From Acidimicrobiaceae bacterium (GTDB lineage Bacteria > Actinomycetota > Acidimicrobiia > Acidimicrobiales > MedAcidi-G1), in the NCBI GenBank assembly GCA_002727895.1, contig PBUO01000057.1, positions 18,157 through 63,673 on the forward strand: DNA of 45,517 nucleotides, in the 5' to 3' direction. Positions 12,203 through 28,198 of the stretch are shown here, piece by piece. Within the stretch, counting starts at the first letter, position 1, and each line of letters opens with the position of its first letter. Made by a program: the position numbers and the translations under genes. Below the pieces are notes generated by a model. That model ran no database searches and had not been told where the DNA came from. It worked only from the letters and a program-made list of their open reading frames with translations.

Positions 12203-13956
12203 CGGGAACCCGCCGCCTTGATCTCCATGGCAACGCGACCGACCGTGTCAGGAGACCGTCGGCAGAATCGTTTCGAAAAGGAAGCCACCGCGTCGACCAC
12301 GTCCTCCCCCGTCCACCAGGCCTCCACGTCGTTCCAGATCGAATTGACATGGGCGGCCGCAGAAATCGAATCCTCGTGGAAGACCCCCACCTCGGTAAGG
12401 CGATCAAACCAGGGCCGCGACTCCGGGAGGATGCCCCACCGGTCCGGATCCCAGAACATCACCGTCGGCACCCCAAGGTAGATCGATTCGAGGAACGTCG
12501 TCCCATTCGTGGTCGTGACATAGATCCGAGCCTCCGAAAGGAGTTCAAGGATGCTGCGTCGGCCATCGTCCACATCGACGTCGGGAAAGCGATCCGCCCA
12601 TCGTTCCAACACCGACCAGTGGACGTCGTGCTGAGAGCCCCTGACCCTGAGGGCCGAACGGACGTCGGGATCGAGAGACTCCACGAAGGAGTAGATGTCA
12701 TCGACATAGTCGAGGAACTCGCTGGACAGGGCGGACGACGAGAGGCTGCCGACCTGGGCGGTCTCGTTGCCAAGGACCAGCACGGCGCTCATGCCCCGAC
12801 CCTCTGGACGCTCCGGCAGCACCGGGTCCTTCAGCGTTCCCACGGGCCTGATCCTCGGGTCGTCCGGAGCGTCCCAGCCCCAACTGAGGAAGCGGTCGGC
12901 GACGGACAACTGGTGATGGTGGAAGAACGACCACCCAATTCCGGCATGTCCACCGTGCTGGCCGATCACCAACTTTGCTCCCGCCTCGACCCGCTCGGCG
13001 CACCAAGCCTTGAAGAGGTCGTCGTAGAGGTGCGAGGCACTGGTGAAGACAACGGACGTCGAGGTCGGCCACGACATCTCCTCGGCCTGCGCCACGAGGT
13101 CTCGGTAACCCTCGAGATACGCCGTCGGAAGGAACTCGGCGAGGAGGACGCCCAGGCATTCGGCGAAGGGATCACCGTCGGCGACCTTGAGTCGCCAGCC
13201 ACGCTCGGCCGGGTCGGGATCCACCCCGCGTACGGGACCCACCCGGTAGAGCCGCGGAACCTGGCGAAGTCGGAGGTGGAGGGCCAGTTCCTCCCGAACC
13301 GACCGCAGGCAGGGATTGACCACCATCACGTCCGACGACCGGGCCAGCGGGGAAAGGATGCGGAGCGCGAAATCGACCAACCGGGCTCGGAGGCCCTCGT
13401 GTGATGGCTCCTCGTCCACCATCAGGCCACCGAGATGACCGGCTGACGCGAGCCGGCGAGGAACGTCGGTCGTGGCCTCCAGGACCCGCGCAACCACATG
13501 ATGGTTCCACTGATGACTGTTCGACAACCAGAGATGGTCCACCATGTCGACCGGAACCCGGGCGTCCGGAAGGTCCTCGAGGACGATGGTGGAATCGACG
13601 GCTCCGGAAGACACCGCCATCTGGACCTGGGACCACCGGTCGAAAAGGGCCTGCGTGAAGAATCCCAGCCATGGCCCGACGAGGATCCTCCAGTACCGGA
13701 CTTCGTGGTCCACCCGGTGTCTGGCGTTCAAGAGGGCCGAGATGGCAACCAGAAGGTCCTCGTGGAGACTCCATAGCCGTTCTCGGTCCATCTCGACCTT
13801 GGCCCGGTCGGCCCAATGGTAGGGCAGCACCTCGGCATCAAGTCCCACCCAGCGATCCGATGCCCGATACTCGCGGCACCACTCGCCGAGAAAGAGAATC
13901 GGCTCTCCGTCGCCCCAGGACTCCTCGATCGACGTCGACACGAGGAGCCGCCCCAT
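12199..13956 (-). CDS. Uncharacterised 585-aa protein, candidate LIC12162-family putative transferase
   Basis: Long ORF with an ATG start and first in its operon. The N-terminus LLVSTSIEESWGDGEPILFLGEWC matches, from memory, the start of the Leptospira LIC12162 family found next to nonulosonate genes. The C-terminal IYVTTTNGTTFLESIYLGVPTVMFWDP looks like a GT-B/capsule-transferase nucleotide-sugar domain. The function is not verified. Confidence 0.6.
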   Translation of the reverse strand: MGRLLVSTSIEESWGDGEPILFLGEWCREYRASDRWVGLDAEVLPYHWADRAKVEMDRERLWSLHEDLLVAISALLNARHRVDHEVRYWRILVGPWLGFFTQALFDRWSQVQMAVSSGAVDSTIVLEDLPDARVPVDMVDHLWLSNSHQWNHHVVARVLEATTDVPRRLASAGHLGGLMVDEEPSHEGLRARLVDFALRILSPLARSSDVMVVNPCLRSVREELALHLRLRQVPRLYRVGPVRGVDPDPAERGWRLKVADGDPFAECLGVLLAEFLPTAYLEGYRDLVAQAEEMSWPTSTSVVFTSASHLYDDLFKAWCAERVEAGAKLVIGQHGGHAGIGWSFFHHHQLSVADRFLSWGWDAPDDPRIRPVGTLKDPVLPERPEGRGMSAVLVLGNETAQVGSLSSSALSSEFLDYVDDIYSFVESLDPDVRSALRVRGSQHDVHWSVLERWADRFPDVDVDDGRRSILELLSEARIYVTTTNGTTFLESIYLGVPTVMFWDPDRWGILPESRPWFDRLTEVGVFHEDSISAAAHVNSIWNDVEAWWTGEDVVDAVASFSKRFCRRSPDTVGRVAMEIKAAGSR

Positions 13957-14040
13957 CGACGGGAAGACTACAGTCTGCCCGCCCGCACGATCCCGCAGGC
14001 TGGCAGCTACCAGCCCAGACAGTCGGCGACGAGGAGGCCC
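13957..14040. promoter_or_regulatory. Divergent intergenic region between the two operon starts (likely bidirectional promoter)
   Basis: 84-bp gap between the minus-strand start at 13956 and the plus-strand GTG at 14041. A GAGGAGG Shine-Dalgarno-like element lies just before 14041. No promoter hexamers could be assigned confidently. Confidence 0.35.
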
Positions 14041-14937
14041 GTGACAGGATCACCACTGGACGGCCACCGATCGACGGTCGTCGGTGCCGGCTCGATCGGC
14101 TCCCGACACCGCCGGGTCCTGGAGGACCTCGGCTCCACCGTCTCGGTGGTGAGCCGACGACCTGAAGTGGGAACCCATGCCACGATCGCCGAGGCCGTGG
14201 ACGCCACCGAGCCCGACTACGTGGTCCTGGCCACCGAGACCGAGCGGCATCTGGAATCGATCGAACGGCTGGTGGACACCGGATTCCGCGGCCGGGCGCT
14301 TCTGGAGAAGCCTGCCTTCGACGACGTCCGCCCGTTCCCCGACCTGCCCTTCGCTTCGGTGGCCGTGGGCTACCAGCTCCGGTTCCACCCTGCGGTCCAG
14401 AGACTTCGAGACGAGATCGCCGGGTCGAGGGTGTTGAGCGCACAGGTTAGGTACGGCCAGCACCTCCCCGACTGGCGACCCGGTCGGGACTACCGGTCCA
14501 CGGTGACAGCCGGTCCCGGTGGCGGAGTCCTCCTCGAACTGAGCCATGAGATCGACCTCGTGCACTGGCTTCTGGGCGCGGGAACGGCCGTCTTTGGCCG
14601 GACCCGGCGATCGGGCCTCCTGGACATCGAACGGGAGGACCTGGCCGTCGGCGTCATCGAGTTGGACACCGGTGGCCTGGTGGGTCTCGAGTTGAACGCC
14701 CTCGACCGCCGTCGGAACCGCACCATGACCGTGACGACCGCCGACCACTTCTTCCACCTCGACCTGGTCGCCGGCCGACTGGAAAGGGATGACGAGGTGC
14801 TAGTTCCCGGACCGGTCGAGCGCGACGAGTTGTTCGCCGACTTGCACCTCGCGACGATTGCCGGAGCGCCCGGGCCATGCACACCTGACGAGGCCCTCGA
14901 AGTCCTCCGGACGATCCGGGGACTCCGCTCCACCTGA
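14041..14937 (+). CDS. Gfo/Idh/MocA-family oxidoreductase
   Basis: The track ORF 13816..14937 is trimmed to the in-frame GTG at 14041, because the upstream part overlaps the divergent gene. It has the Rossmann motif VVGAGSIGSRH and the EKP motif LLEKPAF. Confidence 0.75.
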   Translation: MTGSPLDGHRSTVVGAGSIGSRHRRVLEDLGSTVSVVSRRPEVGTHATIAEAVDATEPDYVVLATETERHLESIERLVDTGFRGRALLEKPAFDDVRPFPDLPFASVAVGYQLRFHPAVQRLRDEIAGSRVLSAQVRYGQHLPDWRPGRDYRSTVTAGPGGGVLLELSHEIDLVHWLLGAGTAVFGRTRRSGLLDIEREDLAVGVIELDTGGLVGLELNALDRRRNRTMTVTTADHFFHLDLVAGRLERDDEVLVPGPVERDELFADLHLATIAGAPGPCTPDEALEVLRTIRGLRST

Positions 14938-15025
14938 CCGGCCGCGCACCGCACCGCACCGGTAATCTGCGGGGATGGCCCGGTGGGCCACCTGACAGAG
15001 GACGAGGACAGGAGGTGGTCGTCCC

Positions 15026-15814
15026 ATGGCGACGGTTCCCGACTTCCGGTCCCTCGAGGACCGGGTGGTACTTATCACCGGCGGTGCCGGCCACATCGGT
15101 TCGACCCTCGCCGAGGCATTCCTGGCGGTGGGGAGCCGGGTGGCGACCGTTGACCTGACGGACCCGGTCGGCCCCCCGACCGACGCCGGACCCGACCGGT
15201 ACCAGCACCTACCCGTCGACCTATCCCGGGACGGCGATGCCGTAATGGCGTGCGACGGCGTCCTCAACGCGTTCGGTCGCCTGGACACGATCGTGGCCAC
15301 GGCATCTTGGATGGGCACGGCCACCACCCCCGGCTGGAACGTCCCGTTCGACGAGCAGGACGAGCGGCTCTGGGCCGAGGTTCTCCAGGTGGGCGTCACA
15401 GCGAACTTCACCCTGATGAAACGGGCCTTCCCGCACCTCGCAGCCAACGGTGGCGGCTCGGTGGTCCTGCTCAGTTCCATCTACGGCTTCTGCGGACCAC
15501 AGCCCGCCATGTACGAGGACACGGGTATCAACAACATCGCCGGCTATGCGGCCAGCAAGGGTGCCCTCGTCCAACTGGCCCGGTGGTTGGCCACGACCAT
15601 GGCACCGGACGTCCGGGTCAACGCCGTCTCGCCCGGCGGCCTCTTCCGAGACCAGCGACCTCCATTCGAGGAGCGGTACAGCGAACGGACGCCACTTGGA
15701 CGAATGGCCACTGAGGAGGATCTGGTTGGCCCTGTGCTCTTCCTGGCATCGGATCTCTCCCGCTACATCACTGGGCACGACCTCGTCGTAGACGGTGGCT
15801 TCTCCACGTGGTGA
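15026..15814 (+). CDS. Classical short-chain dehydrogenase/reductase (PtmA-like position)
   Basis: 262-aa ORF with ITGGAGHIGS (TGxxxGxG) and a YAASK catalytic motif. The ATG is preceded by AGGAGG. It lies upstream of the CMP-nonulosonate synthetase, as in ptmA-ptmB arrangements. Confidence 0.8.
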   Translation: MATVPDFRSLEDRVVLITGGAGHIGSTLAEAFLAVGSRVATVDLTDPVGPPTDAGPDRYQHLPVDLSRDGDAVMACDGVLNAFGRLDTIVATASWMGTATTPGWNVPFDEQDERLWAEVLQVGVTANFTLMKRAFPHLAANGGGSVVLLSSIYGFCGPQPAMYEDTGINNIAGYAASKGALVQLARWLATTMAPDVRVNAVSPGGLFRDQRPPFEERYSERTPLGRMATEEDLVGPVLFLASDLSRYITGHDLVVDGGFSTW

Positions 15815-16809
15815 CCGGCGCCAGGAGAACCGTCGCTGTGGTCGGTGGCGGCCAACTCGGCTCCCGATACCTCCAGGGCCTTGCGGCGTGTCGGAATCCA
15901 TTGGACGTCGCTGTAGTCGATCCCGACCCCAGTTCGCTGGATGTCTGTCGGAGCCGCTGGACACAGGCCGGTGGAGCGGAATCGGACCACCGACTGTCCC
16001 TCACCGGATCGGCCGTCAACCTTGCGTCTCAGTTGGACCTGGCCATCATCTCCACCACCGCCGGAATCCGGACGACGGTTGTCGAGGAACTCTCGGGTCA
16101 TGCCCGAGTCGGCTCCTGGTTGCTCGAGAAGGTACTGGCCCAGGGCCTCACCGAACTCGACCGCATCGCGGTAGCAGTGGGCGAGGACGCGGCCTGGGTC
16201 AACACTTGGGCGCGGACGACCCAATGGTTTCGACAGATTGGTGCACACCTCGGCTCCGGGCCCCATGCCATCGAGGTCACCGGCGGCTCCTGGGGCCTCG
16301 CTTGCAACGCCATCCACTTCCTTGACCTAGTCGGATGGTGGACCGGTGAAGGACTTGACATCGTAGATGCATCGAAACTGGACCGGCCATGGCTCGCCGC
16401 GAGGAGGACGGACCACGTCGAGCTCTCCGGCCAGCTGATGGCACGCTTCGACGGTGGTTCGACCGTCGGCCTCTCTTCGTCACCGCCTTCCAGCGCCGGA
16501 GACCCAGCTGGAATGGACGCGCCAGAATTGATGACTATTCGGTCGCCAGTCGGCACCTGGCGAATCGAGGACCCAATGTCGGAAACTTTGGGACTCGCTA
16601 CTGACGATGCTGGGCTGCGGATCGAGGGTCGTATCGAGTACCAGAGCGAGCGGACGCCGGGACTGGTGGACGCCATCCTCGATACGGGAAAATGTGACCT
16701 CCCCGATCTCGCGTCATCCATCGACCTACACCGTCGATTCCTCACCGGACTACTCGAGGCCCGACCGTTTCTCGAAGGTGTTCCCGAGGATCGGGTCCCG
16801 ATCACGTGA
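15808..16809 (+). CDS. Divergent Gfo/Idh/MocA-like Rossmann protein
   Basis: 333-aa ORF with VAVVGGGQLGSRYL (GxGxxG) and a degenerate EKP motif (LLEKVL). The start is the GTG at 15808 or 15811, with GTGA overlapping the SDR stop at 15811-15814. Confidence 0.6.
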   Translation: MVTGARRTVAVVGGGQLGSRYLQGLAACRNPLDVAVVDPDPSSLDVCRSRWTQAGGAESDHRLSLTGSAVNLASQLDLAIISTTAGIRTTVVEELSGHARVGSWLLEKVLAQGLTELDRIAVAVGEDAAWVNTWARTTQWFRQIGAHLGSGPHAIEVTGGSWGLACNAIHFLDLVGWWTGEGLDIVDASKLDRPWLAARRTDHVELSGQLMARFDGGSTVGLSSSPPSSAGDPAGMDAPELMTIRSPVGTWRIEDPMSETLGLATDDAGLRIEGRIEYQSERTPGLVDAILDTGKCDLPDLASSIDLHRRFLTGLLEARPFLEGVPEDRVPIT

Positions 16810-17747
16810 GCGGCCGACCTCTCTGGCTGGTCGGAGCCGGTCCGATGGCTCAGGCCTACTCCAGGGTGCTCGACGACTTAAGCGTCGATCATCAGGTCAT
16901 AGGCCGCGGCACGGGTTCCGCCACGGCGTTCGAATCTGCCACTGGACATGCCGTTAGGCCCGGTGGGGTGGAGCGAGCGATCGGCGACTCGTCGGTGCCG
17001 GACACGGCGATCGTCGCCGTGTCTGTCGATCAGTTGGCCCAGACCGCCAGTCAGCTCCTCCGGGCTGGGGTCCGCCGAATCCTCCTTGAAAAGCCCGCCG
17101 GGCTCTCCTGCGATGAAGTCCGCCCAGTCCGCGCAGATGCCTCGAATGGGGCTGTGGTGGTGGCCTACAACCGCCGCCATTACGCCTCGGTCCGGGCTGC
17201 GCGGGCAGCCATCGCTGAGGACGGCGGAGTCTGCAGCTTCTCGTTCGAGGTCACCGAATGGCCCCATGCCACTGAGCCGACCCAAGTCGGTCCGACTATC
17301 CGACGTCGATGGTTCATCGCCCAGACCTCCCATGTGGTGGACCTCGCGTTCCACCTCGGAGGCCGCCCGGCGAACTGGACATGCCACTCAGCCGGATCCC
17401 TGACCTGGCACCCAGAGTCGGCCCGTTACAGCGGCGCGGGGACGACCATCGCCGGTGCCACCTTCGGCTACCACGGCGATTGGGAAGCACCGGGGCGTTG
17501 GGCGGTCGAGATCCTCACCCGTCATCGACGGCTCATCCTCCGACCCCTGGAGGAACTTCGCTCCATTCCCATGGGTTCCCACGAGGTCGAGATCGTCACC
17601 CTTGATGACGACCTCGACCGGACGTTCAAGCCAGGCGTCCACCGACAGGCAACCGCATTCCTGGACGGCGACGACTCAGTGGCCTGCCTCCTCGACGAGC
17701 ACATGGCCAACATGGAGATCTTCGAGCGTATGGCGGGCTACCGATGA
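16806..17747 (+). CDS. Gfo/Idh/MocA-like oxidoreductase
   Basis: 313-aa ORF with LWLVGAGPMAQAY (GxGxxA) and ILLEKPAG. GTGA overlap at 16806-16809. Confidence 0.65.
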   Translation: MSGRPLWLVGAGPMAQAYSRVLDDLSVDHQVIGRGTGSATAFESATGHAVRPGGVERAIGDSSVPDTAIVAVSVDQLAQTASQLLRAGVRRILLEKPAGLSCDEVRPVRADASNGAVVVAYNRRHYASVRAARAAIAEDGGVCSFSFEVTEWPHATEPTQVGPTIRRRWFIAQTSHVVDLAFHLGGRPANWTCHSAGSLTWHPESARYSGAGTTIAGATFGYHGDWEAPGRWAVEILTRHRRLILRPLEELRSIPMGSHEVEIVTLDDDLDRTFKPGVHRQATAFLDGDDSVACLLDEHMANMEIFERMAGYR

Positions 17748-18484
17748 CGGGGACCGTCGCACTGATCCCCGCCCGGTCGGGTTCCAAGGGCGTGCCCGCG
17801 AAGAACATCCGCCCTCTCGGTGGCCGTCCTCTCCTCGCCTGGACGATCGCTGCCGCTCTCAGATCCGCTTCGATTGACCGCGTAATCGTCTCCACCGACT
17901 CTGAGGAGTACGCCGAATTGGCCCTTGACCACGGCGCCGAGGTCCCGTTTCTCCGGCCGGCGGAACTTGCTAGCGACCACTCGCGCGATGTCGAGTTCAT
18001 CCTCCACGCCCTCGACTGGCTCATCAAAAACGAAGGTGTCGAACCCGAACTCCTGGTCCACCTTAGGCCCACCACTCCGTTCCGGTCCCCGACCGACCTC
18101 GACGCCGCGGTAGACCTAATGCGGACGGCGACCAGCGAAACCAACCAGACGCCCTCCGCTGTGCGATCGGTCCATGAAATGTCGACCACCGCCTACAAGT
18201 GCATGGAGATCGATGGCGGCCTGCTGCGCCAAGTGGGCGCTCCCACCACGGCTCTGGACCGGGCTAACGACCCCCGGCAGGATTTCCCGGTCACCTACCT
18301 TGCCAACGGATACGTGGACGTTCTCTCCACCGCATTCGTCCGTGCGACCGGTCTCCTCCATGGCGATCGCGTGGTTCCGTTCTTGACACCCCTCGCGCTG
18401 GAGGTCGACACCGAAGCTGACTTCGAGCTCCTCCAACGCCACTTCGATCTACACCCCGAATTGGCTGACCAACTGTTCGGCTGA
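17744..18484 (+). CDS. Acylneuraminate cytidylyltransferase family (CMP-nonulosonate synthetase, NeuA/LegF/PseF-like)
   Basis: 246-aa ORF with the signature ALIPARSGSKGVPAKNIRPLGGRPLLAWTI. ATGA overlap at 17744-17747. Confidence 0.9.
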   Translation: MTGTVALIPARSGSKGVPAKNIRPLGGRPLLAWTIAAALRSASIDRVIVSTDSEEYAELALDHGAEVPFLRPAELASDHSRDVEFILHALDWLIKNEGVEPELLVHLRPTTPFRSPTDLDAAVDLMRTATSETNQTPSAVRSVHEMSTTAYKCMEIDGGLLRQVGAPTTALDRANDPRQDFPVTYLANGYVDVLSTAFVRATGLLHGDRVVPFLTPLALEVDTEADFELLQRHFDLHPELADQLFG

Positions 18485-18623: not shown

Positions 18624-20870
18624 ATGAACCTCGACCGCGAGATGTCCCGCTACCTCGTCCTTGACGAGGAGTCGGTCCGGGTGGCCTTGGAGAAGATCGA
18701 CCGGAACGATGAGGGAGTTGCCGTCTGCGTCGACACCAGCGGCTTGCTGGTCGGGGTTCTAACCGACGGAGACCTTCGACGATGGCTAGTTGGCCAACCC
18801 TTGCCCAACCTCGACCAGCCTGTGGGCGGGATCGTCAACACCAGTCCGAGGACGGCCCGAATCGACGACGACGCCCGGCGGATCGAGTCCCGATTCGACC
18901 AGGACGTGCACCTGATCCCGCTGCTCGACGACGATGGCCGGTGCGTGGCCATCGCGCGACCGCGCTCTGCTCTCTATGCCCTAGGCGACCGAACGGTCGG
19001 CCCGGGCGCCCCCTGCCTCCTAATCGCGGAGATCGGCATCAACCACAACGGCAGTCTCGACCTTGCCTTCCGGATGATCGACGAGGCGGTCGAGGCCGGA
19101 GCGGACTGCGTCAAGTTCCAACTCCGTGACCTGTCATCCCTTTACTCCAACGCAGGAGATGCCTCCGACCACCGAGAAGACCTTGGCTCCCAGTACACCC
19201 TCGACCTGCTGACCCGCCACCAACTGACGGTCGACGAGATGTACCGGGCGCTGGACCACTGTCGGGACAGCGGGGTGATCCCACTGGTGACACCCTGGGA
19301 CGAGGCCAGCATGGAACGCCTGGAAGAATACGGAATCGACGGCTACAAGACCGCGTCGGCCGACTTCACAAACCACCCGTTCCTGCGCCGTCTAGCACGC
19401 ACCGGCAAACCCCTGATCTGTTCGACTGGAATGACCTCTCACAGCGAGGTCCGGGAGTCGGTCGACCTACTCATCAGCGAGGGCTCGCAGTTCGCCCTTC
19501 TCCACTGCAACTCCACGTATCCAGCACCATTCAAGGATGTCAACCTCCGATACATGGAGACCCTCCGTGAGATCGGCGGATGTCCCACTGGCTACTCCAG
19601 CCACGATCGGGGTATCAACGTCTGCGTCGCCGCCGTCGCCCTAGGTGCCGACATCATCGAGAAGCACTTCACGCTGGATAAGGAGATGGAGGGGAACGAC
19701 CACCGCGTGAGCCTCCTACCCGGCGAATTTGCGGCCCTTGTGACGGGGATCCGGGAGGTAGAGGAGGCGAAGGGGTCTCCGGGCGGACGGTCGCTGACCC
19801 AGGGCGAGATGATGAATCGGGAGTCTCTAGGCAAGAGCCTGATGGTGAATATGTATCTTGAGCCGGGGACGGTCATCGAGGAGCACATGCTCGATATCCG
19901 AAGTCCGGGAAGGGGCCTTCAGCCCAACCGCCTCGCCGAGGTCGTCGGCCTCCCGGCCCGTCGACCACTTAAACCCGGCGACGTCCTTTACCCCTCGGAC
20001 GTCAGCGGGGCCTCGGCAGTCGCGAGGGAGTACTCGTTTGATCGCCCCATGGGTATCCCCGTCCGCTACCACGATCTTGCAGACCTGGAGCCGCTGTCCA
20101 ACTTCGATTTCCTAGAGTTCCACCTGAGCTACAAGGACCTCGACGTCGACGAATCGCTCTTCTTCGACCAGCCACTGGACCTCGACCTCGTGGTCCACTC
20201 CCCCGACCTGTTCGAAGGTGACCACCTCCTCGACCTGAGTTCGCCCGACCCCGACTACCGGGCAGTGTCGATGCGGCACCTCCAGCGGGTAGTCGACCTC
20301 ACCCGCCGACTCGCTCCCCGTTTCACCAGAGCAGACCGACCACTGGTAGTGGTGAGCGTGGGCGGCTTCACCCAACACGCTCCAGCCGACGAGAACGAGA
20401 AGGAGGAGCGCTACCGACGCGTGGCCGACGCCCTCGCCACCCTCGACCTTGACGGAGTCGAGGTTTTGCCCCAGACCATGCCTCCATTCCCCTGGTACTT
20501 CGGCGGGCAGAGGTTCATGAACCTTTTCATCGATCCGAAGGAAATAGCCGCCTTCTCCAGGGAACATGGCTACCGGGTCTGCTTCGACACCTCCCACTCG
20601 AAGTTGGCCTGCACCCACCACCACTGGTCGTTCAGCGAATTCGTCCAGACGGTGGCTCCCCACACCGCTCACCTCCATCTTGGCGACGCCGCAGGAGTCG
20701 ACGGCGAGGGACTCCAAGTCATGGACGGAGACATCGACTGGCGGATGCTCAGCACCGAACTCCGAAAGTTGGCTCCGGATGCCTCGTTCATCCCCGAAAT
20801 CTGGCAGGGCCACAAGAACAGCGGCCAGGGCTTCTGGCGAGCCCTCGAACTTCTGGAGCCCTACTTCTGA
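18624..20870 (+). CDS. Multidomain nonulosonate synthase: CBS pair + NeuB-type synthase + SAF + xylose-isomerase-like TIM barrel
   Basis: 748-aa uninterrupted ORF. The domains by residue range are:
- aa ~8-115: CBS-like.
- aa ~128-385: NeuB motifs LLIAEIGINHNG, CVKFQ, GYSSHD, EKHFTLD.
- aa ~398-460: SAF-like.
- aa ~470-748: AP_endonuc_2/xylose-isomerase-like pattern (CFDTSHS, HLHLGDA, IPEIW). Confidence 0.85.
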   Translation: MNLDREMSRYLVLDEESVRVALEKIDRNDEGVAVCVDTSGLLVGVLTDGDLRRWLVGQPLPNLDQPVGGIVNTSPRTARIDDDARRIESRFDQDVHLIPLLDDDGRCVAIARPRSALYALGDRTVGPGAPCLLIAEIGINHNGSLDLAFRMIDEAVEAGADCVKFQLRDLSSLYSNAGDASDHREDLGSQYTLDLLTRHQLTVDEMYRALDHCRDSGVIPLVTPWDEASMERLEEYGIDGYKTASADFTNHPFLRRLARTGKPLICSTGMTSHSEVRESVDLLISEGSQFALLHCNSTYPAPFKDVNLRYMETLREIGGCPTGYSSHDRGINVCVAAVALGADIIEKHFTLDKEMEGNDHRVSLLPGEFAALVTGIREVEEAKGSPGGRSLTQGEMMNRESLGKSLMVNMYLEPGTVIEEHMLDIRSPGRGLQPNRLAEVVGLPARRPLKPGDVLYPSDVSGASAVAREYSFDRPMGIPVRYHDLADLEPLSNFDFLEFHLSYKDLDVDESLFFDQPLDLDLVVHSPDLFEGDHLLDLSSPDPDYRAVSMRHLQRVVDLTRRLAPRFTRADRPLVVVSVGGFTQHAPADENEKEERYRRVADALATLDLDGVEVLPQTMPPFPWYFGGQRFMNLFIDPKEIAAFSREHGYRVCFDTSHSKLACTHHHWSFSEFVQTVAPHTAHLHLGDAAGVDGEGLQVMDGDIDWRMLSTELRKLAPDASFIPEIWQGHKNSGQGFWRALELLEPYF

Positions 20871-22117
20871 GCCCCTAATCTGAGCCCGACAGCCCCACGG
20901 AGGTCGTGGAACCGGGCGACGAGGTCCTCCACCTCGCTGAGTTCATCGATGGCCTCGGCCGGAACCACGAGCCCGTCAGCGGTGGCGCGGCGTAGGACAG
21001 TCGCCACAGGTCCGTAGTCACCCGGCGTGGATCGACCTGAGGCCTGCCGGAGCCTCTTGGCCCCCACCGTCACTCCGGCGGGGAGAGCACCCAAGAGGGA
21101 GCGGAGGCCAGACGCTGCGGAGCCCCGCCAGGTCCGTCCCTCGGGCACGGGATCGAGGTCTTCGTAGAGCCGATGGTTGCATTTGACGAACACCTCAGCA
21201 GCGGTGCGGACCACCTCAGCGCATCCGTCAGCGTCGAGTCCGAGTCCTTCGGCGGTCGAGTTTGAAATCGTCGCGACAAAGAGGGAGCGCTGTTCCGCGA
21301 ACTCTGGGCCGGCCCACCACTCGGGGAACCAGACCATCCCCTCCTTCTCCCCCTCGGCAACGGGTTGGATCGGGTGCTCGACGGAACGGAGCCACTGGAT
21401 GGCGTCCGAACTCACGAAGTCGCCGAGGAGGTGGACCACCATCGCTTGGTGGACCTCTGCAGCGTGACCCGAGTCGTAGTCCTCGACCGAACCCCATGAC
21501 CTCCGCCACACCGGGGTGCGGAGAACCGCGTAGCAAGTGGCCATGGTGTAGTCCCGGAAGGCGAGGCGAAAGCGCTCCTCGGGATCCGCCGACCTGACCG
21601 AAAAGCCGCCCATCGAGCGATACGTCCGATGGAAAGTGAGCCTGCGAAAGCCACCCGCCGGCAAGAAGGATACGACCTGGCCCATGCAACCGATCGCCTC
21701 AGGATCCTCGGCCAGAGTAGACAGAGCCACACGGAGTCCGCTCGGCAAATGGAACTCGTCGTCGCCGAGCATCACCGCGTAGGGGGTGGTGATCATCCTC
21801 CCCGCGAGACGAAGACGGGTCGACATCGAGCCGTTGTCGTGGATGTAGGTGATCCTCGGATGCTTGATAAGGGCGGATGTCACCCGATCCGGCAGAGACA
21901 CATCGGAGCCGTCGACGATCACGACGGATGCGCTCCGTCGCGCCCAATACCGGATCAGCCGTAGCAGGTAATCCTGGCGACGGTAGGAGGGCACCACTAC
22001 GGTGAGATCGGCCAGCCCGTCCTCCTCCGGCGGGACGAAGCCGTCCATCAGGACCTCTAGACACCAGTCCTCAACGGCGCGAGTCGTCGGAGTGAAGGGT
22101 CCCGGATCCGCGATCAC
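20861..22117 (-). CDS. GT-A-fold (GT2-like) glycosyltransferase-domain protein with an uncharacterised C-terminal half
   Basis: 418-aa ORF with LTVVVPSYRRQDYLLRLIRYW...VVIVDGS and a DxD-like MLGDDEF motif. The GTG at 22117 gives a GTGA overlap with the upstream stop. Its 3' end overlaps the convergent gene by 10 nt. Confidence 0.65.
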   Translation of the reverse strand: MIADPGPFTPTTRAVEDWCLEVLMDGFVPPEEDGLADLTVVVPSYRRQDYLLRLIRYWARRSASVVIVDGSDVSLPDRVTSALIKHPRITYIHDNGSMSTRLRLAGRMITTPYAVMLGDDEFHLPSGLRVALSTLAEDPEAIGCMGQVVSFLPAGGFRRLTFHRTYRSMGGFSVRSADPEERFRLAFRDYTMATCYAVLRTPVWRRSWGSVEDYDSGHAAEVHQAMVVHLLGDFVSSDAIQWLRSVEHPIQPVAEGEKEGMVWFPEWWAGPEFAEQRSLFVATISNSTAEGLGLDADGCAEVVRTAAEVFVKCNHRLYEDLDPVPEGRTWRGSAASGLRSLLGALPAGVTVGAKRLRQASGRSTPGDYGPVATVLRRATADGLVVPAEAIDELSEVEDLVARFHDLRGAVGLRLGAQK

Positions 22118-22740
22118 GGCGCTCCGCCCGGCGTCTCCACTCCGTAATGCCGCCGGACCTCGTCCAGTGCTTCAAGCAGCGATCCGTGGATTGACCGGTG
22201 GTTCTCGCTGGGCGGTAGGCCATAGTCGGCGCCAGCCTCGGCGAGGAAGACCATTCCGCAGCCTGCGGCCATCGCCGCCAGACAGTCGCGGGGATCGTCG
22301 CCGACGTAAAGAGTCCTCGCGAGATCTAGGTCATGATCTGCCGCTGCCTCGAGAAACATCCCAGGCGCAGGCTTCCTGCGTAGCGAATTCGAGTTCACTG
22401 GGTCCGGGCACATGTAGACGTCCAGGATCGTGATGCCCTCCCGCTCCAACTCAGCAACCATCCGCCGGTGGACCGACTCCAATTCCCTGGGATCCAAGGC
22501 GCCCGAGGCGATCCCGGCCTGATTGGTGATCACGATGAACTCGAAACCATCCTGGGCGAGGTGTCGCATGGCCTCGACGGTGTCCTCGCGGAAATCGAAC
22601 TCCTCCCACGACCCCACGTACCGCCCGCGACCCACTGACCGGTTGATGGTCCCGTCCCGATCCATCAGAAGGACACGTCGGCCGCCACCGTCCGCCCGGC
22701 TTCCGGGATGGGAGGCGCTGCCAGGAAGCCGATCGATCAC
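22114..22740 (-). CDS. HAD-IIIA phosphatase, GmhB-like (heptose 1,7-bisphosphate phosphatase family)
   Basis: The track ORF is trimmed to the GTG at 22740 (GTGA overlap). It has the motifs MDRDGTIN (DxDGT), ITNQAGI, RKPAPGM and YVGDDPRD. It lacks the Cys-rich zinc loop of E. coli GmhB. Confidence 0.75.
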   Translation of the reverse strand: MIDRLPGSASHPGSRADGGGRRVLLMDRDGTINRSVGRGRYVGSWEEFDFREDTVEAMRHLAQDGFEFIVITNQAGIASGALDPRELESVHRRMVAELEREGITILDVYMCPDPVNSNSLRRKPAPGMFLEAAADHDLDLARTLYVGDDPRDCLAAMAAGCGMVFLAEAGADYGLPPSENHRSIHGSLLEALDEVRRHYGVETPGGAP

Positions 22741-23276
22741 CGTGAGGCGGAGCGGAACGACCCCAACGCCCGGTCGCGTTCGGACACGACGGCCGGTTCG
22801 GCAGGCCATTCCACTCCGAGGTCAGGGTCGTCATAGCGGAAGCCCGTATATAGGTCTGGCCGATAGACGTCGCCCATCTGGTAGTGCACGATCGTGTCGT
22901 CCTCCAAGGTCATGAAACCGGTGGCACAGCCACTGGCCACAAGAACTGAGGTCCGGTCGCCGACCTCGAACCGGAAGGACTCATGAGCGCCATAGGTCGG
23001 CGAGTCGGGCCGGTTATCGACGATTACCACGACGGCTGCACCCGCGACCACTGTAAGGATCTTCTGTTCCGCAGAGGGTGCCTTCTGGTAGTGAAATCCC
23101 CGAAGAGTGTGCCGCCGGACGTTGAACGACACGTTGCTCTGGCAGATCTCGAAGTCAATCCCCTCGTTCGCCAGCGATTGGCGACAGTAGGACCTCCAGA
23201 ACTCGCCCCTACCATCCCTATGCACTTCCGGGCTGATCCGTAGTACCCCGTCGATTGAGGAGAGGGAGACTCTCAC
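22737..23276 (-). CDS. RmlC-like cupin (NDP-4-keto-6-deoxy-sugar 3,5-epimerase family)
   Basis: The track ORF is trimmed to the GTG at 23276 (GTGA overlap). It has the motifs DGRGEF, RGFHYQ, KILTVVAGAAVVVIVDNRPDSPTYG, GCATGF and DPDLGVEWP. Confidence 0.8.
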   Translation of the reverse strand: MRVSLSSIDGVLRISPEVHRDGRGEFWRSYCRQSLANEGIDFEICQSNVSFNVRRHTLRGFHYQKAPSAEQKILTVVAGAAVVVIVDNRPDSPTYGAHESFRFEVGDRTSVLVASGCATGFMTLEDDTIVHYQMGDVYRPDLYTGFRYDDPDLGVEWPAEPAVVSERDRALGSFRSASR

Positions 23277-24444: not shown

Positions 24445-25872
24445 TCAGGCGAGTTCCCGGTGGAGGTCAGAAGAAGACAATGGCACATTGCCCATCCTGT
24501 CCACCTGGATCGCCGCGGCAACTGACCCTAGGAGGCCGGCTTCCCACGGATTGGCTCCCCGCGCAGTCGCCATCGCGCTGCTGATCATCAGAGAGTCCCC
24601 GGCGCCCGCGACATCTCGTGGTGTCGGGTTCAGTGCCGGGATCCGGTCGGTATGAATGTCTGCACCTACATCCTCCCGGTGGAGCAGCGCCCCCTCCGCT
24701 CCCATCTTCATGATGATCGTGCGAGCTCCCGATGTGATCCGCAGCTTCTCGGCGAGAACAACCAGTCCGTCCTGTTGGTTGCGGAGGCTGACTCGCGCTT
24801 CGTGCTCGGTGGGTGTCAGGAGGTCCATCCCCCGGAATCGGGCCACGTCCCCAATCTGCGAGGAGGACTGGCTGTCAGCCACCATCGGGACCCCACGCTC
24901 CCTGGCCCGATCCGCTAGGTCGTCGACGAGGTCTTGGGGAAGGCAGCCGTAGTTGAAGTCGGAGAAGACCAGGAGATCGCAGGATTCGACGATTTCCTCG
25001 AACCGGGCGACTATCCCCTCCCGGACGAAAGCCTCGATCGGCGCCTGGTGAAGCCTGCTGACCCGGAGCAACGTCTTGCCGGCGGCCCGGTACCTCTGCT
25101 TGAGCGGCGTGGGTCGGACCCCGTCGACAAAGAACGCTGCGTCCACCCCCAAGGAGGCCAGCTGGGATTCGGCAAAGGCGCCAGCCTCGTCCTCGCCGGC
25201 GACGGTGAGGCAAGTCACCCCGGCGCCCAGCCCCGCGGCGTGGGCGGCGACGATGCCCGCTCCTCCGACGTAAGTCGTCGTGTCCACCGGGGTCACGACG
25301 ATCGTCGGGTCCTCTTGGGACATCCCCAGCGGTTCACAGGTCACGTACTCGTCAACGATCAGATCACCGACCACACAGACCGACAGAGAGCCAAAGCCGT
25401 CTACCAGTTCCCGGACGCCGGCGACGTCGATTCCGTGCCGGTCCAGGTAGTCGGCCGGCAGACTCCGGACGACTCTTCCGGCATCCTCCAGATCTCGGCG
25501 GATGAGGTCGAGAGAGGAGAATGTGGCCTCGCCCGAACTAAACACGAGTTGACCACCGTAGGAGGACAAGACCTCGGCCTCCGGATTCGGATACTCGCGG
25601 TGTTCGTTGCCCTTGACTACTACGTCCGGACGGAGTCGGCCGACCACATTCTCGACTGGCTCGTCTACCAGAAAGCACTCATCCACGTAACTGTTGGTGG
25701 ACAGGCTCTCTAACCGCAGGGACTCCGGTATGTGGGCGGCATCACCGGCGATCCTGTCGCTCTGCACGCCCACGATGAGGCGGTCGCCGAGGTCTCGTGC
25801 GAAGCGAAGGAGACGCAGGTGGCCCGGATGGAGGACGTTGAAGTTGCCCGATACGAAGACCACTTTCGTCAT
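24445..25872 (-). CDS. Bifunctional HldE/RfaE-like protein with reversed domain order (N-terminal cytidylyltransferase-fold nucleotidyltransferase, C-terminal PfkB sugar kinase)
   Basis: 475-aa ORF.
- aa 1-~130: FVSGNFNVLHPGHLRLL (HxGH), GDRLIVGVQSD, PDVVVKG, matching RfaE domain II.
- aa ~160-475: VCVVGDLIVDEY...GGAGIVAAHAAGLGA...DVAGAGDS, matching RfaE domain I/PfkB.
The ATG is preceded by GAGG. Confidence 0.8.
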   Translation of the reverse strand: MTKVVFVSGNFNVLHPGHLRLLRFARDLGDRLIVGVQSDRIAGDAAHIPESLRLESLSTNSYVDECFLVDEPVENVVGRLRPDVVVKGNEHREYPNPEAEVLSSYGGQLVFSSGEATFSSLDLIRRDLEDAGRVVRSLPADYLDRHGIDVAGVRELVDGFGSLSVCVVGDLIVDEYVTCEPLGMSQEDPTIVVTPVDTTTYVGGAGIVAAHAAGLGAGVTCLTVAGEDEAGAFAESQLASLGVDAAFFVDGVRPTPLKQRYRAAGKTLLRVSRLHQAPIEAFVREGIVARFEEIVESCDLLVFSDFNYGCLPQDLVDDLADRARERGVPMVADSQSSSQIGDVARFRGMDLLTPTEHEARVSLRNQQDGLVVLAEKLRITSGARTIIMKMGAEGALLHREDVGADIHTDRIPALNPTPRDVAGAGDSLMISSAMATARGANPWEAGLLGSVAAAIQVDRMGNVPLSSSDLHRELA

Positions 25873-26983: not shown

Positions 26984-27125
26984 CGGATCGTTTCGCCAGT
27001 CGACTCCCGCCGGACTCCCGGCGACTCGTTGGCACGACACTAACGGGAGGTTCACCCTGTCGAAGGTCAACCCCAAACTCGGCGACCAGCGCCCCCTTCA
27101 GCGCTTCGGTCTCAAGAGGCGGGAC

Positions 27126-28196: not shown

Positions 28197-28198
28197 CC

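What the first reader, a model, noticed from the sequence alone, without database searches (positions are those of the whole stretch)
18624..20870. Four-domain fusion: CBS pair + NeuB-type synthase + SAF + xylose-isomerase-like TIM barrel in one 748-aa protein
This is a single uninterrupted ORF.
- Residues ~8-115 look like a CBS pair.
- Residues ~128-385 carry NeuB motifs (LLIAEIGINHNG, CVKFQ, GYSSHD, EKHFTLD).
- Residues ~398-460 are SAF-like.
- Residues ~470-748 show the metal-site pattern of AP-endonuclease-2/xylose-isomerase-like TIM barrels (CFDTSHS, HLHLGDA, IPEIW).

Canonical NeuB/LegI/PseI enzymes are NeuB+SAF only and roughly half this length. In the C. jejuni legionaminic acid pathway the CBS pair sits on the nucleotidyltransferase PtmE, not on the synthase.

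The TIM-barrel superfamily includes sugar 3-epimerases, keto-isomerases and dehydratases. The fusion could therefore couple PEP condensation to an isomerisation or epimerisation step. It could also compensate for the absent hydrolysing 2-epimerase. The CBS pair suggests nucleotide-ligand control.
Basis: partly seen in the sequence, partly recalled or inferred. Interest (0 to 1): 0.72.

Follow-up and report, generated by a model that had tools for sequence, protein, structure and literature searches.

The report
NeuB sugar-acid synthase fused to TIM barrel
This is a real 748-residue enzyme that joins a sialic-acid-type synthase to a sensor domain and a metal-binding barrel domain; the same design occurs in hundreds of bacterial species, especially cyanobacteria, no study of it turned up, and it appears to make an activated acidic sugar for cell-surface polysaccharides without the usual helper enzyme.

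Summary
ORF 18624..20870 (+) encodes 748 aa with a CBS pair, NeuB, SAF and a xylose-isomerase-like TIM barrel, all above Pfam thresholds. It is not an assembly artefact: relatives of the barrel occur in 344 GTDB species genomes across more than 12 phyla, and the 80 loci fetched carry the fusion.

The architecture is common, but I found no paper describing it.

The barrel belongs to a small clade (989 clusters in 1.84 billion) found almost only with NeuB: a separate gene just downstream of NeuB, a three-domain fusion, or the four-domain form here.

The one strongly conserved neighbour is a PseF-like cytidylyltransferase. NeuC-type 2-epimerases (5/160 loci) appear only beside a second, canonical NeuB; KdsC-type phosphatases never (0/160).

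The closest solved relative of the barrel is MJ1311, then endonuclease IV, ahead of sugar 3-epimerases. In the window's clade two canonical metal-ligand positions are changed (Gln617, Ser578), which argues against classical 3-epimerase chemistry.

My best reading: a NeuC-independent synthase + phosphoesterase + cytidylyltransferase route to a CMP-ulosonic acid, possibly Kdn-like. The barrel's reaction is inferred, not shown. Rivals are isomerase, NDP-sugar hydrolase, or tailoring/non-catalytic. I rate it a new variant of a known kind, of moderate interest.

The parts
18624..20870 (+). Complete ORF of 748 aa plus stop: CBS pair, NeuB, SAF and TIM barrel in one polypeptide
   Evidence: The full length is conserved in 21 diverse homologues.
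18645..18968 (+). CBS pair (about residues 8-115) with the invariant motif GVLTDGDLRRW (44-54)
   Evidence: Pfam CBS, 2 stretches. The best outside matches are the CBS regions of KpsF/GutQ. Invariant residues are listed.
19014..19778 (+). NeuB catalytic TIM-barrel domain (about residues 131-385). The catalytic set is retained: E136, K164, Q166, K242, S245, Y299, S325, H327, E346, H348, D359. A family-specific insertion EDLGSQYT lies at 185-192.
   Evidence: Pfam NeuB E 3e-80. Residue-by-residue alignment to N. meningitidis NeuB 1xuu.
19830..20009 (+). SAF (antifreeze-like) domain, about residues 403-462. The loop IRSPGRG (425-431) carries Ser427 where N. meningitidis NeuB has Arg314.
   Evidence: Pfam SAF; alignment A4. 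PDB 4ipi and 4ipj differ from wild type at exactly this residue.
20046..20867 (+). Xylose-isomerase-like / AP_endonuc_2 TIM barrel (about residues 475-748). Conserved His/Asp/Glu: H500, H525, D655, H658, H683, H685, D688, D693, E695, E725, H730. Altered canonical positions: Ser578 and Gln617. Clade signature: PQTMPPFPW.
   Evidence: Pfam; AF2 model; Foldseek; alignments A3 and hhalign against E. coli Nfo and UlaE; motif census.
17744..18484 (+). Partner CTP_transf_3 cytidylyltransferase (CMP-ulosonate synthetase, PseF-like but below the equivalog cut-off)
   Evidence: This is the only strongly conserved neighbour: 50/80 Q-type loci (median gap 140 bp) and 21/24 long E-type loci.
13816..17747 (+). 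Upstream genes on the same strand: GFO/IDH/MocA oxidoreductase (13816-14937), PtmA-like SDR (15026-15814), unknown Rossmann-like protein (15808-16809), PtmF-like GFO oxidoreductase (16806-17747)
   Evidence: SDR and GFO genes recur with NeuB-TIM in 12/24 long E-type loci. PtmA and PtmF are standard members of Leg clusters (PMC4481668).
10334..13956 (-). ABC exporter (10334-12202) and LIC12162-family O-antigen transferase (12199-13956). These are the likely export and transfer partners for the glycan that receives the ulosonic acid.
   Evidence: TIGR04331, 417.8 bits against a cut-off of 225. The same pair sits next to the fusion in L004 and L006.

Best explanation
The ORF is a genuine member of a widespread subfamily of NeuB-type ulosonic-acid synthases for which I found no characterisation.

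**Shown**
- The NeuB+SAF half has a complete catalytic set for condensing PEP with an aldose. It lacks the Arg (NmNeuB R314) that reaches into the partner subunit's active site.
- This synthase subfamily is always coupled to one dedicated clade of metal-type TIM barrels. The coupling takes three forms: a translationally coupled downstream gene, a three-domain fusion, or the CBS-bearing four-domain fusion seen here.
- A PseF-like cytidylyltransferase is the conserved third partner.
- The module sits in polysaccharide / O-antigen loci with Wzm/Wzt or other ABC exporters and with LIC12162-, KpsC/S- or polysialyltransferase-like glycosyltransferases.
- NeuC/LegG-type epimerases and KdsC-type HAD phosphatases are not part of the module.

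**Inferred**
- The three activities form a self-contained, NeuC-independent route from a common sugar phosphate plus PEP to a CMP-ulosonic acid.
- This would be analogous to KdsA/KdsC/KdsB and to Kdn-9-P synthase / phosphatase / CMP-Kdn synthetase.
- In that scheme the TIM barrel is a metal-dependent phosphoesterase. It would remove the terminal phosphate of the condensation product, for example Kdn-9-P made from Man-6-P, so that the cytidylyltransferase can activate it.
- In the window's clade the metal site is remodelled (Glu to Gln617, His to Ser578).
- The N-terminal CBS pair adds nucleotide or CMP-sugar sensing.
For: **Architecture and spread**
-.
- Rosetta-stone coupling: four of four standalone barrels looked up lie directly after a NeuB gene. 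Three of those NeuB genes are complete (344-349 aa) and one is cut by the contig end.
- In the metagenome scan 67 of 80 barrels are fused, three more follow a separate NeuB gene, and in L094 the gene order is cytidylyltransferase, NeuB, TIM.

**The barrel clade is small and NeuB-specific**
- 989 representative clusters out of 1.84 billion proteins.

**Partner genes**
- Cytidylyltransferase: 50/80 and 21/24 loci.
- No amino-sugar genes within +-10 kb in 31 of 47 fully flanked loci. L026 and L094 were examined in detail.
- NeuC-like genes in 5/160 loci, each time beside a separate NeuB ORF (four full-length with the 'RPG' motif, one a 90-aa fragment).
- KdsC-type HAD in 0/160 loci. The window's only HAD is GmhB-type and sits with heptose genes.

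**Phosphoesterase leaning**
- The E/H-type barrel profile matches MJ1311 (E 1.4e-15), then endonuclease IV proteins (E 1e-4 to 5e-4), ahead of UlaE (0.035).
- Alignment to E. coli Nfo places the family's His/His/Glu/Asp/His/His/Glu residues on Endo IV ligands H69, H109, E145, D179, H182, H216 and E261.
- From my own recollection, not verifiable here: the MJ1311 structure paper (Uechi et al. 2014) reports all nine Endo IV trinuclear-zinc ligands conserved, without a DNA groove.
- The superfamily already contains a small-molecule phosphodiesterase, CbiR (PMC7733943).

**Precedent and constraint**
- Three-enzyme phosphosugar routes are known: Man-6-P + PEP gives Kdn-9-P, then a phosphatase, then CMP-Kdn synthetase (PMC6200933).
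- The TIM domain is as constrained as the NeuB domain (0.75 against 0.78).
Against: - No activity has been measured, and the substrate of either catalytic domain is unknown.
- Foldseek ranks sugar(-phosphate) 3-epimerases (UlaE, DTE/DPE) marginally ahead of Endo IV. All matches are distant (TM 0.53-0.65, 11-18% identity).
- In the window's clade two of the three ligands of Endo IV's first zinc site are replaced (Ser578, Gln617). A trinuclear phosphoesterase mechanism therefore cannot be intact here.
- Sugar-acid phosphatases are often functionally redundant (PMC6200933), which makes an obligatory fusion to a phosphatase less expected than a fusion to a substrate-forming enzyme.
- In the window, and in about half of the E-type loci, PtmA-like SDR and PtmF-like GFO oxidoreductases accompany the module. 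This hints at redox or epimerisation chemistry that the phosphatase model does not use.
- Some loci also have 4,6-dehydratase and aminotransferase genes but no NeuC. There, release of a free sugar from an NDP-sugar still needs explaining.
- The full-length model gives no reliable domain packing (pTM 0.53).
Confidence: 0.4

Rival explanations
1. The TIM barrel is a sugar or sugar-phosphate isomerase/epimerase that makes the aldose substrate for the NeuB domain. This would be a KdsD-like role, for example converting a ketose phosphate into a manno-configured aldose phosphate. It is the first reader's reading. The CBS pair would then regulate supply, as in KdsD/KpsF, which also carry a CBS pair.
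For: - The top Foldseek matches are UlaE and ketose 3-epimerases.
- hhalign to UlaE scores better than to Nfo (76% against 18% probability).
- Most characterised members of PF01261 act on sugars (PMC7733943).
- The CBS pair most resembles that of KpsF/GutQ arabinose-5-P isomerases.
- An obligatory fusion fits a non-redundant, substrate-forming step.
- GFO and SDR neighbours could form a keto-intermediate epimerisation set. The analogy to E. coli YcjS/YcjR/YcjQ is from my own knowledge.
Against: - Gln617 replaces the Glu that is both metal ligand and one of the two catalytic bases in DTE/DPE/UlaE-type epimerases.
- The clade keeps His525, and E/H-type members also keep the 'HPGG' His. These are Endo IV/MJ1311 features that the alignment shows UlaE lacks.
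- The sequence profile ranks Endo IV above UlaE.
- If the substrate were a sugar phosphate, a phosphatase would still be missing from the module.
Confidence: 0.25
2. The TIM barrel functionally replaces NeuC/LegG. It would release the free reducing sugar from an NDP-sugar or a sugar-1-phosphate by metal-dependent phosphoester hydrolysis, with or without C2 inversion, and hand it to the NeuB active site.
For: - NeuC is absent from the window and from all loci where the TIM-associated NeuB is the only synthase.
- Some such loci, including the window, L007, L045, L054, L069, L074 and L086, do have 4,6-dehydratase and/or aminotransferase genes typical of NDP-sugar routes.
- The ligand pattern is Endo IV/MJ1311-like.
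- CbiR shows that the superfamily can cleave small-molecule phosphodiesters.
Against: - Thirty-one of 47 fully flanked loci have no NDP-amino-sugar genes at all, so this cannot be the general role unless the substrate is a housekeeping NDP-sugar such as GDP-mannose.
- The dehydratase and aminotransferase genes in the window can be assigned to other sugars of this very large cluster.
- There is no precedent for glycosyl-phosphate hydrolysis in this superfamily.
Confidence: 0.12
3. The TIM barrel acts after condensation as a tailoring enzyme on the ulosonic acid, for example C4 epimerisation or dehydration via the C3 enolate. Alternatively it has become a non-catalytic sugar-binding, oligomerisation or regulatory module in the Gln617 clade.
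For: - Two canonical ligand positions are lost together in the window's clade.
- The fusion co-exists with a complete canonical NeuC + NeuB + dehydratase + aminotransferase set in L005, L027, L043 and L085. This suggests it makes or modifies a different sugar.
- Radical-SAM, methyltransferase, alcohol-dehydrogenase and aminotransferase genes that may tailor the sugar are frequent neighbours.
Against: - The domain is as conserved as the catalytic NeuB domain. The remaining His/Asp/Glu (H500, H525, D655, H658, H683, H685, D693, E695, E725, H730) are invariant across phyla, which is not expected of a purely structural module.
- His to Ser/Asn and Glu to Gln are polar replacements of similar size that can still ligate a metal (inference).
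- Tailoring enzymes are rarely coupled this strictly to one synthase subfamily.
Confidence: 0.15
4. The long ORF is an assembly or frameshift artefact that joins separate genes.
For: None found. Split NeuB + TIM gene pairs do exist in nature, so the possibility had to be checked.
Against: - The identical 748-aa protein is on record from an ENA metagenome contig.
- More than 120 clusters and 80 genome loci share the uninterrupted architecture, including finished genomes.
- The linkers are short and are aligned without gaps.
Confidence: 0.01

Closest known systems
NeuB / sialic acid synthase family (N. meningitidis NeuB, PDB 1xuu/1xuz; B. subtilis SpsE 1vli; C. jejuni PseI 8h2c)
   Same: - NeuB TIM-barrel plus SAF domain.
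- All PEP-, metal- and sugar-binding residues that I could map are conserved: E25, K53, Q55, K129, S132, Y186, S213, H215, E234, H236, D247.
- About 31% identity, E about 1e-47.
   Different: - Twice the length, with an added N-terminal CBS pair and C-terminal TIM barrel.
- Arg314 of the SAF loop is replaced by Ser427, and E134 by Asp247.
- There is an extra EDLGSQYT insertion.
- Scores fall below the NCBIfam equivalog cut-offs for NeuB_NnaB (309.5 against 399.65) and PseI (216.5 against 340.25).
- It works in loci without NeuC.
Three-enzyme phosphosugar routes: Kdn-9-P synthase / Kdn-9-P phosphatase (HAD) / CMP-Kdn synthetase of Bacteroides thetaiotaomicron and Prymnesium parvum, and KdsA/KdsC/KdsB for Kdo
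   Same: - The conserved module has three activities, and two of them (PEP-condensing synthase and CTP_transf_3 cytidylyltransferase) correspond directly.
- No NDP-sugar precursor genes are needed (PMC6200933).
   Different: - The third component is a xylose-isomerase-like TIM barrel, not a HAD phosphatase (0/160 KdsC-type).
- It is fused or translationally coupled to the synthase.
- The phosphatase role is inferred only.
MJ1311 of Methanocaldococcus jannaschii (PDB 3wqo, 'D-tagatose 3-epimerase-like protein', function unknown)
   Same: - Closest solved sequence relative of the TIM domain: E 1.1e-8 for the fused profile and 1.4e-15 for the standalone profile.
- Shared motifs: VVHAP, HPG, LENMP, D..H, H.H..D, ...GEG.
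   Different: - Only about 18% identity.
- No link between MJ1311 and NeuB is known to me.
- The window's clade has Ser578 and Gln617 where MJ1311 and the standalone relatives have His and Glu.
Endonuclease IV (E. coli Nfo, 1qtw) and the small-molecule phosphodiesterase CbiR
   Same: - Same superfamily fold.
- The ligand positions of Endo IV H69, D179, H182, H216 and E261 are occupied by H525, D655, H658, H685 and E725.
- There is a weak NCBIfam match to CbiR.
   Different: - No DNA-binding context.
- H109 and E145 equivalents are changed in this clade, and H231 corresponds to Glu.
- TM-score is only 0.53-0.59.
Sugar(-phosphate) 3-epimerases UlaE, D-tagatose and D-psicose 3-epimerases
   Same: - Best Foldseek E-values (2.6e-9 and weaker).
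- The D, H and second E of the metal tetrad align.
   Different: - The first Glu, which is both catalytic base and ligand, is Gln617.
- The family carries extra conserved His residues that the alignment shows UlaE lacks.
C. jejuni legionaminic-acid ptm/leg cluster (PtmA, PtmF, PtmE, LegF, LegI, LegG)
   Same: The window's + strand operon has a PtmF-like GFO, a PtmA-like SDR, a LegF-like cytidylyltransferase and a LegI-position synthase.
   Different: - LegG (NeuC-type) is absent.
- The CBS pair sits on the synthase rather than on the PtmE nucleotidyltransferase.
- The synthase carries the TIM barrel.

Membership tests
NeuB family PEP-condensing ulosonic-acid synthases (PF03102 + SAF PF08666) | NeuB TIM-barrel domain and C-terminal SAF domain above the curated thresholds | tested here: met
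   NeuB 269.6 bits (cut-off 22.1); SAF 34.2 bits (cut-off 21)
NeuB family PEP-condensing ulosonic-acid synthases | Catalytic, metal- and PEP-binding residues of N. meningitidis NeuB: E25, K53, Q55, K129, S132, S213, H215, E234, H236, D247, Y186 | tested here: met
   These align with E136, K164, Q166, K242, S245, S325, H327, E346, H348, D359 and Y299. All are invariant or nearly so in the family.
N-acetylneuraminate synthase proper (NCBIfam TIGR03569 NeuB_NnaB equivalog) | Score above the equivalog cut-off, and the SAF-loop Arg314 that completes the partner subunit's ManNAc site | tested here: not met
   309.5 bits against a cut-off of 399.65. Arg314 is replaced by an invariant Ser427.
Pseudaminic acid synthase PseI (TIGR03586) | Score above the equivalog cut-off | tested here: not met
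   216.5 bits against a cut-off of 340.25
Kdn-9-P / Neu5Ac-9-P synthases (phosphosugar-using NeuB homologues) | Use of Man-6-P or ManNAc-6-P and formation of a 9-phosphate product | not testable with these tools
   No sequence signature for phosphosugar use is established. Only context (no NeuC, no amino-sugar genes) points this way.
AP_endonuc_2 / xylose-isomerase-like TIM barrel superfamily (PF01261) | Domain score above the gathering threshold and a (beta/alpha)8 fold | tested here: met
   72.4 bits against a cut-off of 31.1. AF2 barrel with pTM 0.86. 182 PDB matches with E<=1e-3, and all of the 50 best listed belong to this superfamily.
Ketose / sugar-phosphate 3-epimerases (DTE, DPE, UlaE) | Glu-Asp-His-Glu metal tetrad in which both Glu residues act as the acid/base pair | tested here: not met
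   The first Glu position is an invariant Gln617. The Asp655, His685 and Glu725 positions are kept.
Endonuclease IV | Nine ligands of the trinuclear metal centre (H69, H109, E145, D179, H182, H216, D229, H231, E261) and a DNA-binding groove | tested here: not met
   Five ligands align as identical residues: H525, D655, H658, H685, E725. D693 and E695 lie in the D229/H231 loop, where H231 corresponds to Glu. H109 corresponds to Ser578 and E145 to Gln617. The DNA groove is not assessable. The standalone E/H-type relatives keep the H109 and E145 equivalents as well.
CBS-pair (Bateman) regulatory module | Two tandem CBS motifs above threshold | tested here: met
   PF00571, 2 stretches, 33.7 bits against a cut-off of 24. 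Ligand binding was not tested.
NeuB-associated TIM-barrel clade (defined here) | Signature (E/Q)(N/T)(M/L)PPxPW...GG plus C.D.SH plus H.H..D..G...EG.Q plus PE.W.GH, encoded immediately after or fused to a NeuB that lacks Arg314 | tested here: met

The most novel reading that the evidence does not exclude
The NeuB-dedicated TIM barrel is a new enzyme of nonulosonic-acid biosynthesis that makes the classical hydrolysing 2-epimerase (NeuC/LegG) unnecessary. It would either generate the aldose substrate in situ or dephosphorylate the product, within one channelled, CBS-regulated polypeptide. Fusion plus cytidylyltransferase would then be a complete two-gene route to a CMP-ulosonic acid, possibly Kdn-like, that is widespread in cyanobacteria and more than 12 other phyla.
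Probability: 0.3. Interest if true: 0.7.

Novelty: new variant of a known kind. Interest (0 to 1): 0.55.

Why it matters
Nonulosonic acids (sialic, legionaminic and pseudaminic acids, and Kdn) decorate capsules, O-antigens, flagella and S-layers. Their pathways are used to predict surface chemistry from genomes.

Current pathway models and annotation rules assume NeuC/LegG/PseG-type sugar release followed by a synthase of about 350 aa, or a HAD phosphatase in the phosphosugar routes. This family fits neither. It is found in 344 species-level genomes, including many bloom-forming and nitrogen-fixing cyanobacteria such as Crocosphaera, Dolichospermum, Nodularia and Moorena. It is labelled only 'N-acetylneuraminate synthase family protein'.

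Establishing what the barrel does would:
- add a missing enzyme type to ulosonic-acid biosynthesis;
- allow correct prediction of which organisms make which acidic sugar;
- give a compact two-gene cassette for glyco-engineering;
- assign a first function to the MJ1311-like branch of the xylose-isomerase-like superfamily.

Tried and rejected
- **Faulty residue census.** One search used hmmalign column mapping and produced nonsense. I discarded it and redid the census with motif anchoring.
- **Literature.** Nine of the ten full-text searches bore on this architecture or on related NulO topics (plus the MJ1311 search). None found a paper describing a CBS-NeuB-SAF-TIM protein. The large NeuB phylogeny paper PMC8208679 does not mention fusions. 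The MJ1311 structure paper is not held, so what I say about it rests on memory.
- **Full-length AlphaFold2.** The model gave confident domains but pTM 0.53, so it cannot show whether the two active sites face each other.
- **Sequence search against the PDB.** With the fused-clade profile the only hit for the barrel was MJ1311.
- **The window's HAD hydrolase (22114-22809).** I considered it as a possible NulO-9-P phosphatase and rejected it. It is GmhB-type and sits with heptose-pathway genes.
- **The Fe-ADH + aminotransferase neighbours in L004, L006, L013 and L021.** I considered them as KdnA/KdnB-like terminal amination. NCBIfam gave no specific support, so this remains an idea only.
- **Assembly artefact.** Rejected.

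Full report
**1. Observation**

The window holds an uninterrupted ORF at 18624..20870 (+), ATG to TGA, 748 aa. Pfam-A finds four domains, each above its gathering threshold:
- CBS, two stretches, E 4.6e-8;
- NeuB, residues 151-385, E 3e-80;
- SAF, residues 405-460, E 3.8e-8;
- AP_endonuc_2 (xylose-isomerase-like TIM barrel), residues 494-737, E 6e-20.

NCBIfam's equivalog models for NeuB_NnaB and PseI both match well below their cut-offs (309.5 against 399.65, and 216.5 against 340.25). The N-terminus resembles the CBS part of KpsF/GutQ. An AlphaFold2 model of residues 465-748 is a confident eight-stranded barrel (pLDDT 83.9, pTM 0.86).

**2. Not an artefact, and not rare**

A search of 5.8 billion protein clusters returned more than 120 clusters of about 748 aa. 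They show 100% coverage, 57-99% identity and the same Pfam set. They include Rippkaea orientalis PCC 8801, Crocosphaera watsonii, Dolichospermum and a Burkholderiales MAG.

A scan of one genome per GTDB species with a profile of the barrel found relatives in 344 genomes. The best 80 loci all carry the fusion, apart from copies cut by contig ends or broken by frameshifts.

Carriers span Cyanobacteria (the majority), Acidimicrobiales, Alpha-, Beta-, Gamma- and Deltaproteobacteria, Mycolicibacterium, Thalassobacillus, Bacteroidia, Leptospiraceae, Nitrospinota, Chloroflexi, Acidobacteriota, Lentisphaerae, Kiritimatiellae and Peregrinibacteria. The Acidimicrobiales locus L007 is the closest to the window, at 75% identity with matching neighbouring genes.

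The window's exact protein is on an ENA metagenome contig. All domains are conserved across 21 diverse members: mean column identity is CBS 0.60, NeuB 0.78, SAF 0.70 and TIM 0.75.

**3. The barrel is a dedicated NeuB partner**

An exhaustive HMMER search with the barrel profile found only 989 representative clusters at E<=1e-3 among 1.84 billion proteins. They fall into three groups:
- four-domain proteins of about 745 aa;
- NeuB-SAF-TIM proteins of about 620-680 aa without CBS;
- standalone proteins of about 275 aa.

Four of four standalone genes looked up lie immediately downstream of a NeuB gene, often with overlapping stop and start codons. Three of those NeuB genes are complete (344-349 aa) and one is cut by the contig end. 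A metagenome scan with the standalone profile added 80 loci. Most are fused without CBS, three more are split pairs, and a few carry CBS. This is a classical gene-pair versus fusion pattern, and it shows functional coupling.

**4. The synthase half**

Residue-by-residue alignment to N. meningitidis NeuB shows that every catalytic, metal- and PEP-binding residue I could map is kept. Arg314 is the exception. This SAF-loop residue is the one altered in PDB entries 4ipi and 4ipj. It is an invariant Ser427 here.

The NeuBs next to standalone barrels also lack it (Ser, Gly or Val). The canonical NeuB of the Leg/Pse-type cluster in L005 keeps Arg. TIM-associated NeuBs therefore form their own subfamily, probably with a different sugar substrate.

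**5. The barrel half**

Foldseek places the model about equally far from two groups: UlaE, ketose 3-epimerases and MJ1311 on one side, and endonuclease IV on the other (E 3e-9 to 1e-7, TM 0.53-0.65, 11-18% identity).

By sequence, the fused-clade profile hits only MJ1311. The standalone profile hits MJ1311 (E 1.4e-15), then three endonuclease IV proteins and one putative sugar isomerase (E 1e-4 to 5e-4), then UlaE (0.035).

I fetched genuine E. coli Nfo and UlaE sequences and used profile alignments to map the canonical ligand positions:

| Endo IV ligand | Window residue | Standalone relatives |
|---|---|---|
| H69 | H525 | His |
| H109 | Ser578 (Asn in most fusions) | His, in 'HPGG' |
| E145 (UlaE E155) | Gln617 | Glu, in 'LENMPPFPW' |
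| D179 | D655 | Asp |
| H182 | H658 | His |
| H216 | H685 | His |
| D229 / H231 loop | D693 / E695 | Glu kept; the Asp position varies |
| E261 | E725 | Glu |

The two substitutions co-vary. 'Gln + Asn/Ser/Thr' (called Q-type below) marks most CBS-bearing proteins. 'Glu + His' (E/H-type, or E-type) marks standalone and many three-domain proteins.

A classical two-Glu 3-epimerase mechanism is therefore not available to the window's protein. An intact Endo IV-type trinuclear centre is not available either. The remaining ligands are invariant and the domain is as constrained as the NeuB domain, so I infer a remodelled metal site that is still functional.

**6. Genomic context**

Over the 80 genome loci the only strongly conserved neighbour is a CTP_transf_3 cytidylyltransferase. 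It occurs in 50 of 80 loci, 48 of them within 3 kb, with a median gap of 140 bp. It is PseF-like but below the equivalog cut-off.
- Wzm/Wzt exporters are frequent (27-36 of 80 loci).
- Eight cyanobacterial loci carry a polysialyltransferase-family glycosyltransferase.
- Thirty-one of 47 fully flanked loci have no aminotransferase, 4,6-dehydratase, NeuC, PglD or PtmE gene within 10 kb.
- In long E-type loci the cytidylyltransferase is present in 21 of 24, with a PtmA-like SDR and a GFO oxidoreductase each in 12 of 24.
- NeuC-type genes appear in 5 of 160 loci, each time beside a separate NeuB ORF. Four of these are full-length with the 'RPG' motif and one is a 90-aa fragment.
- KdsC-type HAD phosphatases appear in 0 of 160 loci.

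The simplest loci, L026 and L094, contain just cytidylyltransferase, NeuB and TIM (fused or split) among export and transferase genes. In Rippkaea and Crocosphaera the gene stands alone.

The window itself carries a very large glycan cluster. Upstream on the same strand are a GFO, a PtmA-like SDR, an unknown gene, a PtmF-like GFO and the cytidylyltransferase. On the other strand are an ABC exporter and a LIC12162-family transferase. Further genes provide a heptose route, a WbpA/B/D/E-like set, radical-SAM and methyltransferase genes and more. There is no NeuC homologue in the window.

**7. Mechanism**

What is shown:
- a competent PEP-condensing synthase of a distinct subfamily;
- strict coupling to a metal-type barrel;
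- a partner cytidylyltransferase;
- independence from NeuC.

What I infer as most likely (confidence about 0.4) is a three-activity phosphosugar route. It would resemble KdsA/KdsC/KdsB, or Kdn-9-P synthase / phosphatase / CMP-Kdn synthetase (PMC6200933). The barrel would take the phosphatase role.

Three lines lean this way. The ligand pattern is MJ1311/Endo IV-like. CbiR is a small-molecule phosphodiesterase in the same superfamily (PMC7733943). No HAD phosphatase is present in the loci.

The counter-arguments are the altered site in this clade, the marginally better structural matches to sugar epimerases, the usual redundancy of sugar phosphatases, and the unexplained SDR and GFO partners.

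The rivals are:
- an isomerase or epimerase that forms the aldose (0.25);
- a hydrolase that releases the sugar from an NDP-sugar in place of NeuC (0.12);
- a tailoring or non-catalytic role (0.15).

The CBS pair probably senses a nucleotide or CMP-sugar. This is untested.

**8. Comparison with what is known, novelty and verdict**

The protein belongs to the NeuB family and to the PF01261 superfamily. It fails the tested criteria for NeuB proper, PseI, ketose 3-epimerases and endonuclease IV.

Nine full-text searches on this architecture or on related NulO topics found no paper describing it. Databases label it generically. I rate it a new variant of a known kind: widespread, apparently uncharacterised, and readily testable.

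Interest 0.55.

Noticed in passing
window 24445-25872 (-), with 32757-33452, 31932-32753, 30946-31998 and 22114-22809 (all -): This looks like a heptose-type route. It comprises a bifunctional protein with a cytidylyltransferase-like domain at the N-terminus and a PfkB kinase at the C-terminus, a SIS (GmhA-like) isomerase, an NTP-transferase, a GDP-sugar 4,6-dehydratase-like enzyme and a GmhB-type HAD phosphatase. From my own knowledge, the domain order of the bifunctional protein is the reverse of E. coli HldE.
   Followed up: partly
window 25919-29158 (-): TPP-dependent E1 alpha (28199-29158) and E1 beta (27126-28196) subunits plus a Zn-alcohol dehydrogenase (25919-27076) are embedded in the glycan cluster. 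They may attach or process a two-carbon branch on a sugar. This is speculation from my own knowledge and was not tested.
   Followed up: no
window 1273-2714 (-) and 74-1288 (-); also L006 6062-8689: A HisH/HisF-like glutamine amidotransferase + cyclase pair with an adjacent unknown gene recurs near the fusion in an unrelated genome (L006). Similar pairs are typical of acetamidino-type sugar modification; that assignment is from my own knowledge.
   Followed up: partly
window 12199-13956 (-) and 10334-12202 (-): A LIC12162-family transferase (TIGR04331, 418 bits against a cut-off of 225) is coupled to an ABC exporter with fused membrane and ATPase domains. The same pair lies beside the fusion in L004 and L006. 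It is a candidate transferase and exporter for the ulosonic-acid-bearing glycan.
   Followed up: partly
window 29155-31067 (-); L004 12319-18140; L021, L047, L065; L094 12253-13164: Radical-SAM/SPASM (and B12-radical-SAM) enzymes plus methyltransferases recur next to NeuB-TIM genes in several phyla. This suggests C- or O-methylated ulosonic-acid derivatives.
   Followed up: no
L026 11225-12361, and L010, L014, L018, L024, L029, L041, L052: Cyanobacterial loci carry a glycosyltransferase of the bacterial alpha-2,8-polysialyltransferase family (PF07388, E 9e-57) directly after the fusion, with Wzm/Wzt exporters and pyruvyl transferases. This hints at ulosonic-acid-containing or poly-ulosonic polysaccharides in cyanobacteria.
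   Followed up: partly
L002 (Rippkaea orientalis PCC 8801, CP001287 3587244-3609493) and the Crocosphaera loci L012, L022, L031, L036, L042, L046, L083: In this unicellular diazotroph group the fusion gene is an orphan. No cytidylyltransferase or glycan genes lie within 10 kb; its neighbours are TrkA, ParA-like and glutaminase genes.
   Followed up: partly
L004 14232-17468; L006 12312-15207; L013; L021: A DegT-type aminotransferase and an Fe-alcohol dehydrogenase flank the fusion and its cytidylyltransferase in four distant lineages. This is reminiscent of the Kdo8N pathway (KdnA/KdnB, from my own knowledge) and could mean terminal-carbon amination of the product. NCBIfam gave no specific support.
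   Followed up: partly
window 43634-44866 (-) and 41634-43580 (-): A sugar C-methyltransferase (Methyltransf_13/14) and an AsnB-type amidotransferase lie at the far end of the cluster. Together with the UDP-sugar dehydrogenase at 34471-35739, they point to amidated uronic acids and branched sugars in the same glycan.
   Followed up: no
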